Of a stretch of DNA of 64,000 nucleotides, positions 32,470-49,424 are shown piece by piece. The position numbers and the translations under genes are program-made. Where the stretch lies: contig OZ024745.1 of NCBI GenBank assembly GCA_964016885.1, positions 68,200,001 to 68,264,000 on the forward strand, given 5' to 3'. Source of the DNA: Eledone cirrhosa (Eukaryota). Position 1 is the first letter of the stretch. Each line of letters starts with the position of its first letter. The notes under the pieces were generated by a model that was not told the origin of the DNA, made no database searches, and saw only the letters and a list, made by a program, of their open reading frames with translations.

Positions 32470-33305
32470 ATATCGATAAAATAAAGTACCATTAACGTAC
32501 TGGCCTTGTCCCTATATTAGAAATCATTATTATTCATTATTATTATTCATTGGCAGTATCGGTAGAGGGTTGGACGCCATGCTTTCTAGCATAGTTACGT
32601 CCCTTTACGGTCTGAGTTCAAATCCCGCCAAGGTTAACTTTGCCTTTCATCCTTACGAGGTCGATAAAATAAAGTACCAGTAATGTACTGGATAATTGCT
32701 GGCCTTGTGCCTAAAGTAGAAACAATTATTATTCATTATTATTACTCGTAATAATTGTTTCTACTTTTTGGCACAAGGCCAGCAATTATCCCAGTACATT
32801 ACTGGCGCTTTATTTTATCGACCCCGTAAGGATGAAAGGCAAAGTTAACCTCGGCGGGTAATAATACTGAAAATTGCTGGCCTTGTGCCAAACGTAGAAA
32901 CAATTATTATTACTCGTCGGAGGCCATGCTTTGACGCTTTGAGTTACGGCCCTTGCCATTCTGAGTTCAAATCCCGCCGAGGTTATCTTTGCCTTTCATC
33001 CTTACGGGGTCGATAAAATAAAGTATCAGTAATACACTGGGTAATTGCTGGCCTTGTGCCAAAAAAGTAGAAACAATTATTACTCGTAACGGCGGTGGAT
33101 TGTCAGTATCGGTAGAGGGTCGGACGCCATGCTTTGACGCATATAGTTACGGCCCTTTATGATCTGAGTTCAAATCCCGCAGAGGTTAACTTTGCCTTTC
33201 ATCCTTACGGGGTCGATAAAATAAAGTACCAGTCACGCACTGGGGTCGATTTAATCGACTTTCCCTTCCCACAAAATAGATGGCCTTGTGCCTATATAAG
33301 AAACA
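32470..33305 (+). mobile_element. Nest of SINE copies in (ATT)n
   Basis: Copies at 32551-32724, 32918-33075 and 33090-33305, 3' fragments at 32470-32524 and 32870-32902, and an inverted 3' half at 32751-32858. TSDs of 12-13 bp are visible. Confidence 0.88.
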
Positions 33306-33327
33306 ATTATTATTATTATTCATTATT

Positions 33328-34611
33328 GCGTACATCGCGTCCGTCATCTACTACCGCCTGACCGTAGTGCCTTGTCCTAAGCCTCGCCTGACTGCGCTAG
33401 AGCGTTTGCTCTTTCGCTTTTTGTGGAAGGGACGTGCTCCGATGATCAAGCGGTTCATCTGCTGTCAACACCCTGTACGTGGGGGGCTGGGCATGCCGTG
33501 GCTGATGATGCGCAGACACGCGCTCAGGCTACGACATCTCCAGCTCTTCATCGATGGTGATCAGGTGTGGTCGCCGTTTGCTAGACTCGTCTTTCTCCAG
33601 CTCATCTCCTTGACGGAGCTGCAATCCTGGGTCAAGCGAAGACCGAGAGGGAGCGCTTGGAGACTGGAATGTCTTCAGGCGCTCACAGCCCTCGACCAAT
33701 CGGGCAATGTGATCGGTGGAAACTCCACCTTGGCGTTCTACAGAGGATTAGTGGAGGGGAAGAGCGACGACATACTTGGATCGACGTTCTTGGGTCGACG
33801 TACTTGGCGTCGACGAAAATCAACTAGCCAATCTCTTCGGAAGAACTTTCGGGCCAGGACCTATGGACAATTTCCAGAAATCCCTGGCCTGGCAGTGCTA
33901 CCGAGGAGCTTTTCCAGTTCGGGATAAACTCTACAGGCATGGAAGTGCCGTCAGCCGGGCATGTCCGAGATGCGCGCAGGGCGACGAAACCGTCCTGCAT
34001 GCACTCGTCCAGTGTCCGAGCATTGCTGACTTGTGGGTTTATGTCGAACACCTGCTGTCGCGTGTAGAACGGATCCGGCTATCAGCTGAGTCCATCCTGA
34101 GGATTGCCCCACCCTCTTCCTTTAGCCGGGAAGGGCAGGCTGTTTTTATCTGTCTGGTAGCCATGGCGAAAGAGATAGTATGGTGGACGCGTCTGAAAGG
34201 GTGATGCCCTGATTAACCTTTTCAAATTTTATTTGAAAAGGAAAATCAGGGTAGAGAGGGAAGTGCTCTCTTCCCAGCATTTTGTTGAAAGATGGGTGAG
34301 AGAGACAAGAATGGCCCGAGTGAATGGGCCTACTCTGAGTATATGCCTGTAAACTGAAGATGGAAAACTGGGAAAGGGCACTTGCCCTGGTGGTCAGGGT
34401 CACTGTGGCCTTTTAATGGGCTTTCTCCACAAATGTCACTCGGAAGTCTCCCCCCCACCTATTTGGGAATTTTTTCATTGTTCTTTTTTGTTACATCCTC
34501 TGGTTTTTTGTTTTTTTTACACGCAGAAATGCCCTTTTGTACCGTCCTCTATTGTCCTGTACTGTCCTTAATGTCTACTTTGTGTAAACCCTTGTGGTTA
34601 ATAAAGAAAGC
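33328..34611 (+). mobile_element. 5'-truncated Tx1-like LINE
   Basis: High identity to 47910-49186. GGLGMP motif, CPRC..ETVLHALVQC zinc motif, 16-bp TSD attattattcattatt (33312-33327 / 34612-34627). Confidence 0.92.
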
Positions 34612-34639
34612 ATTATTATTCATTATTATTACTTGTAAC

Positions 34640-34853
34640 GGCGGTGGATTGGTAGTATCGGTAGAGGGTCGGACGCCATGCTTTGACGCATAGAGTTACG
34701 GCCCTTGCCATTCTGAGTTCAAATCCCGCCGAGGTTAACTTTGCCTTTCATCCTTACGGAGTCGATAAATAAAGCACGAGTAATGCACTGGAGTCGATTT
34801 ACTCGACTTTGTTCTCCCCTTCAAATTGCTGGCCTTGTGTTAAAAGTAGAAAC
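34640..34853 (+). mobile_element. Full-length tRNA-derived SINE
   Basis: GGCGGTGGATTGGTAGTATCGG...GAGTTCAAATCC...GGCCTTGTGTTAAAAGTAGAAAC. Confidence 0.88.
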
Positions 34854-48600: not shown

Positions 48601-48912
48601 GAACACCTGCTGTCACGTGTAGGACGGATCCAGCTATCAGCTGAGTCCATCGTGAGGATTGTCCCACCCTCTTCTTTTAGCCGGGCAGGGCAGGCTGTTT
48701 TTATCTGTCTGGTGGCCATGGCGAAAGAGATAGTATGGTGGACACGTTTGAAAGGGCTGAAGACGAGCACTTACCTCTTCGGTGATGCCCTGATTAACTT
48801 TTTCAAATTTCATTTGAAAAGGAAAATCAGGGTAGAGTGGGAAGTGCTCTCTTCCCAGCATTTTGTTGAAAGATGGGTGAGAGAAGCAAGTATGCAAGTA
48901 TGGCCCGAGTGA
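45621..48912 (+). pseudogene. Tx1-like ORF2 (APE endonuclease + reverse transcriptase + Zn motif)
   Basis: INARGL, AISET, VGDWN, YLDRVF, TDH (APE); GPGYWKLN; KSPGLDG, FRPITLLN, DQSKAFDRV, RQGCPLS, YADD (RT); CPRC..H..C. Several frameshifts and a stop at 48373. Confidence 0.93.
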
Positions 48913-49225
48913 ATGGGCCTACTCTGAGTATGTGTCTGTAATTAAAGGTGGAAAACTGGGAGAGGGCACTTGCCCTGGTGGTCAGAGTCACTGTGGTCTT
49001 TTAATGGGCTTTCTCCACAAATGTCCATCGGAAGTCTCCCCCCTATTGGGGAATTTTTCATTGTTATTTTTATTACATCCTCTGTTTTTTTTTACACGCA
49101 GAAATGCCCATTTGTACCGTCCTGTATTGTCTTGTACTGTCCTTAATGTCTACTTTATGTAAACCCTTGTGGTTAATAAAGAAAACATTATTATTATTAT
49201 TATTATTATTATTATTCTTATATTG

Positions 49226-49409
49226 GGCGGTGGATTGGCAGTATCGGTAGAGGGTCGGATGCCATGCTTTCCAGCATAGTTACGTCCCTTTACGATCTGA
49301 GTTCAAATCCCGCCGAGGTTTACTTTGCCTTTCATCCTTACGGGGTCGATAAAATAAAGTACCAGTAATGAACTGGGTAATTGCTGGCCTTGTGCCTAAA
49401 GTAGAAACA
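49226..49409 (+). mobile_element. Full-length tRNA-derived SINE
   Basis: A/B boxes, central GCCTTTCATCCTTACGGGGTCGATAAAATAAAGTACCAG, 3' CCTTGTGCCTAAAGTAGAAACA + (ATT)n. Confidence 0.9.
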
Positions 49410-49424
49410 ATTATTATTATTATT

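What the first reader, a model, noticed from the sequence alone, without database searches (positions are those of the whole stretch)
32470..49424. The abundant SINE appears to be the partner of the (ATT)n-targeting Tx1-like LINE
Seen: the 3' ends align without gaps, LINE CCTTGTG-GTTAATAA-AGAAAAC-ATTATT (49165-49192) versus SINE CCTTGTG-CCTAAAGT-AGAAACA-ATTATT (49388-49415), 15 of 22 identical before the repeat. Both sit in (ATT)n in the same orientation and make similar TSDs starting ATTATT: 16 bp for the LINE (33312-33327/34612-34627), and 13 bp (32539-32551/32725-32737) and 12 bp (32906-32917/33076-33087) for SINEs. Established: SINEs often share 3' ends with their mobilising LINE, and some Tx1-group elements (Kibi, Koshi) are microsatellite-specific. 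Inference: a sequence-specific Tx1-SINE pair. To my knowledge such pairs are seldom reported (not verified).
Basis: partly seen in the sequence, partly recalled or inferred. Interest (0 to 1): 0.75.

Follow-up and report, generated by a model that had tools for sequence, protein, structure and literature searches.

The report
Octopus SINE with Tx1-derived tail hairpin
A very common short jumping element in this octopus-type genome ends in the same small RNA hairpin and (ATT) repeat as a neighbouring Tx1 retrotransposon, so it probably borrows that element's copying enzyme, a partnership with a shared tail that I did not find described for Tx1.

Summary
In detail: 15/22 identity and three exact TSDs; 1 of 69,387 background positions matches as well. 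The shared CCTTGTG is a hairpin: LINE AACC-CUUGU-GGUU, SINE (U)GGC-CUUGU-GCC(A), with the same loop and closing pair, a different but still paired stem, and 16 nt to the (ATT)n in both. Related Tx1 elements (about 50% RT identity) carry GGC-CUNGU-GCC in 58 of 58 usable loci. The SINE's tail, not its body, matches them. So the tail comes from this Tx1 lineage (about 0.9). The long SINE form matches those relatives better than it matches the window's LINE, so the tail donor was an ancestor or a sibling family. The window's LINE alone shares the (ATT)n end, spacing, ATTATT-starting TSDs, strand polarity and age (7.1% between LINE copies versus 3-9.5% between SINE copies). The target is ATTATT, not necessarily a long microsatellite. 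Host: an octopod. Nothing is shown experimentally. The Tx1-Mar/SINEU precedent shares targets, but no shared tail was found there. Verdict: a new variant of stringent SINE-LINE pairing.

The parts
43258..49186 (+). Full-length, decayed Tx1-like LINE (about 5.9 kb). The 5' end is inferred from the (ATT)5 at 43243-43257
43449..45586 (+). ORF1 (premature stop, and a probable frameshift near its end read by eye) with a CX2CX4HX4C knuckle; homologous to ORF1 of relative L001 (E 7e-15); no real Pfam match
45615..48912 (+). ORF2: APE endonuclease, RT and zf-RVT, broken by at least two frameshifts and one stop
49153..49181 (+). LINE 3' stem-loop: inner stem AACC/GGUU (49162-49174) around loop CUUGU (49166-49170); outer stem 49153-49158 with 49176-49181
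49187..49216 (+). (ATT)10 tail/TSD of the full LINE
33328..34611 (+). 5'-truncated copy of the LINE, 7.1% substitutions from the full copy, same hairpin (loop 34591-34595), exact 16-bp TSD
49226..49409 (+). Full-length short-form SINE: A-box-like 49236-49247, B-box-like 49299-49310 (consensus recalled), central body, hairpin GGC-CUUGU-GCC 49386-49396, then AGAAACA and (ATT)5; no T4 run
33091..33305 (+). Long-form SINE (copy E). Its C-rich tract and hairpin (about 33258-33293) match the 3' ends of sister-clade Tx1 elements
34640..34882 (+). Long-form SINE (copy F) with a duplicated end; no usable TSD
32552..32724 (+). Short-form SINE (copy B), 13-bp TSD
32757..32858 (-). 5'-truncated SINE (copy C) on the minus strand, 8-bp TSD ATTATTAC read on its own strand
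32872..32902 (+). 3' fragment of the SINE (copy C')
32918..33075 (+). 5'-truncated SINE (copy D), 12-bp TSD
32473..32525 (+). Older 3' SINE fragment (copy A) that starts the nested cluster
43141..43242 (+). 5'-truncated SINE directly upstream of the full LINE, (ATT)5 on both sides
52049..52229 (+). SINE with a 16-bp TSD in the ATT run at the 5' side of the R4-like element
1345..1382 (+). 38-nt 3' SINE fragment (little more than the hairpin and tail) with a 16-19-bp TSD of ATTATT plus unique sequence
8627..8966 (+). Long + short SINE dimer, 16-bp TSD (1 mismatch) of ATTATT plus unique sequence
19582..19756 (+). Short-form SINE with the 4-bp stem UGGC/GCCA; no TSD
31498..31666 (+). Short-form SINE; its left flank is the end of another repeat, so the TSD cannot be called
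49425..52030 (-). 5'-truncated R4/Dong-like element (RT plus a restriction-like C-terminus; clade label from recall) with (AAT)n at both ends on its own strand. Rival mobiliser, opposite polarity

Best explanation
The SINE is a tRNA-type Pol III element that captured the 3' end of an ancestral member of this cephalopod-associated Tx1 lineage. It is copied by ORF2p of the (ATT)n-tailed family in the window, or of its direct predecessors. Steps: (1) Pol III transcribes the SINE from its internal A/B boxes (inferred). (2) ORF2p binds the 3' hairpin mainly through the C-CUYGU-G loop and tolerates a different stem (hairpin and compensation shown; binding inferred by analogy to ZfL2). (3) The APE domain nicks the AAT-reading strand so that the TSD starts at ATTATT, and the freed AAUAAU-complementary primer pairs with the (AUU)n tail 16 nt past the loop (signature shown, chemistry inferred). 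(4) A second nick 8-19 nt away gives the TSD. Every insertion leaves new ATTATT at both ends, so SINEs and LINEs stack head-to-tail, as at 32473-34903 and 43126-52245 (shown). After the capture the LINE's stem drifted to ACC/GGU by compensatory change, and the SINE's commonest form deleted the upstream C-rich tract but kept the hairpin (inferred order).
For: Anchored identity beyond chance. Hairpin in the MFE fold of both LINE copies; inner stem positions 1-3 paired in 13, 15 and 16 of 16 SINE tails. On a 13-row alignment 4 of 5 pairs change on both sides, 86.7% of cells pair, 0/500 shuffles reach the covariation score, and slid controls pair only 27-55%. GGC-CUNGU-GCC occurs in 58 of 58 relative loci with enough downstream sequence (4 of 62 too short). 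The SINE tail hits all 62 loci (best E 0.003) and the SINE body hits none. Four more distant relatives lack the hairpin. Loop-to-ATT distance is 16 nt in 2 of 2 LINE copies and 12 of 15 SINE tails; relatives instead have a second hairpin, end 27-31 nt after the loop and have only 2 (ATT)3/(AAT)3 runs in 62 loci. TSDs start with ATTATT against a background of 0.0009 per position. Ages overlap: LINE pair 7.1%, spread evenly over codon positions (9/9/12); SINE pairs 2.9-9.5%. Hayashi 2014 (PMC4176376, passages): in L2 LINEs stems can be swapped and loops cannot.
Against: The long SINE tail fits sister-clade elements better (29 of 36 identical, score 46, 0/3000 shuffles) than the window's LINE (score 22, 79/3000), and all five SINE tails tested scored higher against a relative. 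The compensatory signal rests on few independent events: three both-side changes come from the one window LINE family and one from a SINE subfamily, and all 62 relative loci come from one record and about two lineages (93% and 57% RT identity). The SINE hairpin is only 3-4 bp and is not unusually stable (z -0.4 to +1.0; not the MFE in three of the SINE folds), and it is not in the MFE of relative L001. Only two LINE copies and one 64-kb window were seen. Older SINE relics (about 30% diverged) already carry the tail, so it predates these LINE copies. Four of 14 elements lack a TSD.
Confidence: 0.62

Rival explanations
1. A sibling Tx1 family of the same lineage in this genome, which keeps the GGC/GCC stem and C-rich tract and also ends in (ATT)n, is the real or main partner. 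The window's LINE is a cousin with the same target.
For: Better tail match to the sister clade. O. vulgaris has 80 L1-Tx1 consensus families, 13 of them recently active (PMC13282606). The sister clade includes a Sepia protein.
Against: No such family in the window (tblastn). No octopod-named protein of the sister clade among the hits listed, but most hits are unnamed, so this is weak. The sister-clade elements seen lack (ATT)n and the 16-nt spacing.
Confidence: 0.22
2. Relaxed recognition: the Tx1 enzyme needs only the (AUU)n tail, as L1 needs poly(A). The hairpin is a relic of the capture and the ATTATT target comes from primer-template pairing.
For: L1-group elements are the classic relaxed type (PMC3747384, PMC4176376). 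The SINE hairpin is weak.
Against: The loop and closing pair are kept across elements about 50% identical in RT while the rest of the 3' UTR does not align at significance. The short SINE deleted about 30 nt upstream but kept the hairpin.
Confidence: 0.08
3. An RTE, CR1 or L2 LINE with an (ATT)n tail mobilises the SINE today.
For: These clades supply most known SINE partners (PMC3747384 Table 1). RTE-BovB is expanded in octopuses (PMC8967140, PMC10294476). RTE tails correlate with the first TSD base (PMC6007223).
Against: The tail maps onto Tx1 3' ends. Animal RTE microhomology is reported as 1-2 nt (PMC6007223), against 6 nt or more here. No such LINE was found among the 12 + 123 ORFs scanned with Pfam.
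Confidence: 0.05
4. The adjacent R4/Dong-like element, which uses the same microsatellite, is the mobiliser.
For: It lies between two SINEs in the same ATT/AAT run. Dong-R4 is the most active LINE group in O. vulgaris (PMC13282606 Table 1).
Against: Opposite polarity: (AAT)n on its own strand against (ATT)n for the SINE. Its 3' end matches the SINE at only 8/22.
Confidence: 0.02
5. Chance resemblance of two AT-rich ends in a microsatellite-rich genome.
For: The length-corrected p of 1.5e-3 alone would not survive testing about 100 LINE families.
Against: Independent hairpin compensation, and the position-specific match to relatives from another genome.
Confidence: 0.01

Closest known systems
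SINEU / Tx1-Mar of crocodilians (Kojima 2015, PMC4494074; parts 1-4 of 5 read)
   Same: A SINE inferred to be mobilised by a target-preferring Tx1 group, from shared targets, tandem insertion and matching ages.
   Different: SINEU has U1/U2 heads and a poly(A) tail, targets a Mariner element, and no LINE sharing the SINEU-1 3' end was found. Here: tRNA-type head, a shared structured 3' tail, (ATT)n.
Stringent L2 pairs, UnaL2/UnaSINE and ZfL2-1/2-2 (Hayashi 2014, PMC4176376; passages)
   Same: 3' stem-loop followed by short repeats; loop fixed, stem exchangeable. This is what it works like.
   Different: L2 clade rather than Tx1/L1 group; no shared target site with 8-19-bp TSDs described in the passages seen; binding was shown there by experiment and is not shown here.
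Monocot LINE1-1_ZM/ZmSINE2 and Chlamydomonas L1-1_CR/SINEX-3 (Ohshima 2013, PMC3747384; passages and Table 1)
   Same: L1-clade LINE sharing a 3' end with a SINE (a hairpin with compensatory changes in the monocot case).
   Different: Plant and algal L1, not animal Tx1; no sequence-specific target. The table lists no Tx1 pair.
Kibi (TC)n, Koshi (TTC)n and crocodilian (TTCC)n/(TTTC)n Tx1 families (as cited in PMC4494074; Kojima and Fujiwara 2004 not read)
   Same: Tx1-clade APE elements that prefer a simple repeat.
Octopus tRNA-SINEs OK, OR1, OR2 (Ohshima and Okada 1994; seen only as citations)
   Same: Abundant tRNA-derived octopus SINEs. This family may well be one of them (OK, by recall only).
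   Different: Could not be compared: SINEBase supplements were unavailable. OR1/OR2 are cited as CORE-SINEs. The body here did not match Meta or Ceph sequences in the supplements seen (by eye and motif search).

Membership tests
Tx1 clade non-LTR retrotransposon | Two ORFs; ORF2 with APE endonuclease, RT and a C-terminal zinc motif | tested here: met
   PF03372, PF00078, PF13966; ORF1 with CCHC knuckle
Tx1 clade non-LTR retrotransposon | RT closer to Tx1 than to vertebrate L1 or R2 | tested here: met
   252-254 bits / 35% to a Stylophora protein named Transposon TX1 versus 151 bits to human L1 ORF2p and 59-77 to R2. Bits come from different searches.
Tx1 clade non-LTR retrotransposon | Monophyly with curated Tx1 references (RTclass1/Repbase) | tested here: inconclusive
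   Tree of 54 rows: the 21-row clade (100/100) sits among TX1-named and 5S-rDNA-inserted elements, but there is no labelled L1, Kibi or Koshi row and the outgroup branch is very long; L068 was left out
Tx1 clade non-LTR retrotransposon | Target-sequence preference | tested here: met
   2 of 2 copies have TSDs starting ATTATT; n is small
tRNA-derived SINE (SINE2) | Pol III A and B boxes, 100-500 nt, no internal T4, TSDs, 5' truncations | tested here: met
   box consensus recalled
tRNA-derived SINE (SINE2) | Head assignable to a specific tRNA | tested here: not met
   ARAGORN 0 genes; no tRNA hit in Rfam at E<=1. Common for old SINE heads (own knowledge)
tRNA-derived SINE (SINE2) | Pol III transcription | not testable with these tools
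   needs RNA data
Stringent SINE-LINE pair | Shared 3' terminal sequence | tested here: met
   15/22 with the window LINE; 29/36 with relatives
Stringent SINE-LINE pair | Conserved 3' stem-loop with compensatory changes | tested here: met
   few independent events
Stringent SINE-LINE pair | Same insertion signature and overlapping age | tested here: met
   one window only
Stringent SINE-LINE pair | Best match among all LINE families of the genome | not testable with these tools
   no eukaryotic genome collection; relatives from another genome match better
Stringent SINE-LINE pair | ORF2p binds the tail and mobilises the SINE in trans | not testable with these tools
   experiment needed
MetaSINE / Ceph-SINE superfamilies | Meta or Ceph central domain | tested here: inconclusive
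   No resemblance by eye to BivaMeta/BivaMD or Lyst, and motif searches were negative; no alignment was run

The most novel reading that the evidence does not exclude
A cephalopod-associated Tx1 lineage recognises its RNA in the stringent way, through a C-CUNGU-G stem-loop kept across about 50% RT divergence. Its octopod branch switched to an (ATT)n tail and an ATTATT target, and it drove the spread of one of the dominant octopus SINEs. That would be an animal L1-group element with a demonstrable stringent, sequence-targeted SINE partner, a living intermediate between L2-type hairpin recognition and L1-type poly(A) recognition, and a self-renewing source of ATT microsatellite clusters.
Probability: 0.5. 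Interest if true: 0.72.

Novelty: new variant of a known kind. Interest (0 to 1): 0.58.

Why it matters
SINEs make up about 11.6% of the O. vulgaris genome and mark an octopus-specific expansion (PMC13282606, PMC8967140), yet I found no paper naming their partner LINE. A 5-nt loop shared by a SINE and a Tx1 lineage gives a small, mutable determinant for testing the proposal (PMC3747384, PMC4176376) that relaxed L1 recognition evolved from a stringent ancestor. A sequence-targeted LINE with a defined minimal RNA signal is also of interest for targeted-insertion tools. The limit: SINE-LINE tail sharing and Tx1 target specificity are each well known, so this is a new combination rather than a new kind of system.

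Tried and rejected
An unanchored local alignment of the LINE 3' 120 nt to the window did not pick up SINE tails. ARAGORN found no tRNA. Rfam on 32400-34900 gave only sub-threshold miRNA-like hits, which come from the inverted SINE pair. The 31-nt SINE body pattern had 0 matches in genome contigs. An apparent 16-bp TSD for SINE 31498 was rejected because its left copy is the end of another repeat that also occurs at 721-868 and 60561-60702. My first idea that the body is the Meta domain was dropped after seeing Meta-SINE sequences. A Pfam scan of 123 of 185 filtered ORFs found no host gene and no further LINE beyond the Penelope-like RT. NCBIfam added nothing. ESM Atlas gave only leads under 0.9 for ORF1 (CCHC/ZCCHC3-like). 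The search for an octopod-named protein in the sister clade found none. A fixed-gap motif search used the wrong spacer length and is uninformative. A full-text search for a SINE motif returned only unrelated primers among the 20 listed. Metagenome and viral contigs were not searched, and no eukaryotic genome or Repbase/Dfam library was available, so the genome-wide comparison stays open. No structure prediction was run.
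Full report
Observation. The quoted 3' ends and all three TSD pairs are exactly as stated. Blastn finds 26 hits to the SINE in the window, one full LINE and one 5'-truncated LINE. With the 3' ends anchored, 15/22 identity is reached by 1 of 69,387 background positions; with free length and register p is about 1.5e-3. On sequence alone the match is real but modest, and an unanchored search does not find it.

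What the elements are. The LINE (43258-49186) has a knuckle-bearing ORF1 and an APE-RT-zf ORF2, both broken. Its closest named proteins are from Argonauta hians (68%) and Sepia pharaonis (45%), so the host is most likely an octopod. It scores about 253 bits against a TX1-named coral protein and 151 against human L1. In a 54-row tree it forms a 21-row clade (100/100) among TX1-named and 5S-rDNA-inserted elements. No labelled L1, Kibi or Koshi was available, so 'Tx1-like' is well supported but not formally tested. The SINE is about 184 nt (short form) or about 215 nt (long form), with A/B-box-like motifs, no T4 run and frequent 5' truncation. Older relics about 30% diverged resemble the long form, so the short form probably arose by deleting about 30 nt (inference). 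I could not name the family; it may be the published octopus OK SINE (recall only).

The shared motif is a hairpin. Folding puts CUUGU in a loop closed by AACC/GGUU in both LINE copies, inside an outer stem where the one difference between the copies gives a G-U pair. In the SINE the same loop is closed by GGC/GCC, with a fourth U-A pair in one subfamily. Stem positions 1-3 pair in 13, 15 and 16 of 16 tails, and only 1 of 93 background CTTGT sites has a 3-bp Watson-Crick stem. The SINE hairpin is short and not more stable than shuffles.

Evidence from elsewhere. A scan of genome contigs with an RT alignment returned 69 loci. Sixty-two are head-to-tail arrays of intact relatives (about 50% RT identity) in one MAG record (CAXXMW01), evidently eukaryotic DNA; its host was not determined. 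All 58 loci with enough downstream sequence carry GGC-CUNGU-GCC near the 3' end, after a C-rich tract and before a second, variable hairpin and AATAAA. Against all loci the SINE matches only through its tail and only at that position (62 loci, best E 0.003); the body gives no hit. Four more distant relatives lack the hairpin. On a 13-row alignment the loop is invariant except at its middle base, the closing C-G never varies, and 4 of 5 pairs change on both sides. These rows amount to only about four independent lineages.

It makes a Tx1-lineage origin of the tail very likely. It also shows that the window's LINE is not the best sequence match: the long SINE tail aligns 29/36 with the relatives (score 46, 0/3000 shuffles) and scores 22 (79/3000) with the window's LINE. 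The features divide three ways. Loop and closing pair: shared by all. GGC/GCC stem and C-rich tract: SINE and sister clade. 16-nt spacing from loop to repeat (2 of 2 LINEs, 12 of 15 SINE tails), AGAAA end, (ATT)n tail and ATTATT target: SINE and the window's LINE only. The simplest history is capture from an octopod ancestor of this family followed by stem drift in the LINE. A sibling family is the main alternative.

Insertion signature and age. Of 14 elements scanned, 9 have TSDs of 8-19 bp beginning ATTATT, one more is imperfect and four have none. Three of the TSDs are ATTATT plus unique sequence, so two repeat units suffice. ATTATT occurs at 0.0009 per position outside the clusters. Of 24 perfect (ATT)3+ runs, 16 abut a SINE or LINE end, seven belong to two other repeats and one is free; this is partly circular because tails create such runs. 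Polarity is constant: the one young minus-strand SINE has ATTATT on its own strand. The R4/Dong-like element in the same microsatellite has the opposite polarity and an 8/22 match. The LINE copies differ by 7.1%, evenly over codon positions; SINE pairs differ by 2.9-9.5%.

Mechanism. Most likely target-primed reverse transcription by this family's ORF2p. It recognises the loop, nicks at ATTATT and primes on (AUU)n, and each insertion regenerates the target, so elements stack. Shown: hairpin conservation, spacing, TSDs, polarity, ages, nesting. Inferred: Pol III transcription, binding, nicking, trans-mobilisation. In L2 LINEs the loop is essential and the stems are exchangeable (PMC4176376, passages), which would let a LINE with an ACC/GGU stem copy a SINE with GGC/GCC.

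Comparison and novelty. It works like the stringent L2 pairs. The nearest Tx1 precedent is SINEU/Tx1-Mar, with shared targets and no shared tail found (PMC4494074, parts 1-4 of 5). Ohshima's table of pairs has none from Tx1 (PMC3747384, passages and first part of the tables). SINEBase lists LINE-derived regions for Bov-B, CR1 and L2 only (PMC3531059, passages; supplements unavailable). Octopus and mollusc repeat papers mention L1-Tx1 and SINEs without pairing them in what I saw (PMC13282606 parts 1-2 of 3 and a supplement search; PMC8967140, PMC10294476, PMC4758252, PMC4824008, PMC5804259, PMC9223172, PMC5753468 passages; PMC6007223 passages for the RTE rival). Ten searches found no report of this pair. 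The library lacks most subscription journals and Repbase Reports, Ohshima and Okada 1994 and Kojima and Fujiwara 2004 were not read, and the SINEBase supplements and the O. vulgaris repeat library could bear on the claim.

Verdict. Real, with better evidence than first proposed: tail from this Tx1 lineage about 0.9, this family as mobiliser about 0.6. A new variant of a known kind; interest 0.58.

Noticed in passing
window 43126-52245: One ATT/AAT microsatellite holds five stacked insertions: SINE, full Tx1-like LINE, SINE, a minus-strand R4/Dong-like element and a SINE. Two LINE clades use the same repeat from opposite strands.
   Followed up: yes
window 1345-52229: All separate loci of young SINE/LINE copies are on the + strand (only nested copy 32757-32858 is minus), while old relics lie on both strands. 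Unexplained; no host gene found.
   Followed up: partly
L001-L062 (record CAXXMW01): Many contigs of a bacterial MAG are head-to-tail arrays of intact Tx1-like elements (about 6.5 kb period) with two 3' hairpins and no microsatellite: eukaryotic contamination, and an apparently self-targeting array.
   Followed up: partly
L003:7881-7910 and equivalents: A second 3' hairpin (5-9 bp) in the relatives varies in sequence between families while staying paired; it is absent from the window's LINE.
   Followed up: partly
L063:2726-2844, L065:4422-4534, L068: Distant Tx1 relatives in other MAGs end against 5S rRNA or sit in a U1/U2/5S array, like Mutsu and Keno (names recalled or as cited).
   Followed up: partly
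window 59060-60190 (-): Penelope-like element with RT and GIY-YIG domains.
   Followed up: no
window 32689-32793: Tail-to-tail inverted SINE copies form a long hairpin that gives sub-threshold miRNA-like Rfam hits.
   Followed up: partly
window 721-868, 31350-31497, 60561-60702: A roughly 150-bp TA-flanked repeat ending in three ATT units; it mimics a TSD next to SINE 31498.
   Followed up: partly
window 19429-19487 and 19780-19838: Inverted arms flank SINE 19582, which has no TSD; it seems to lie inside a MITE-like element.
   Followed up: no
window 27397-30716 and 30728-31021: A roughly 545-bp unit in tandem and inverted copies, and a 294-bp palindrome.
   Followed up: no
window 28960-29060 (-) and 5171-5260 (+): A fragment resembling a CORE-type SINE (recall), and an older head related to this SINE joined to unrelated sequence.
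   Followed up: no
window 9251-10303 and 37881-38630: 52-bp (20 copies) and 48-bp (16 copies) minisatellites.
   Followed up: no
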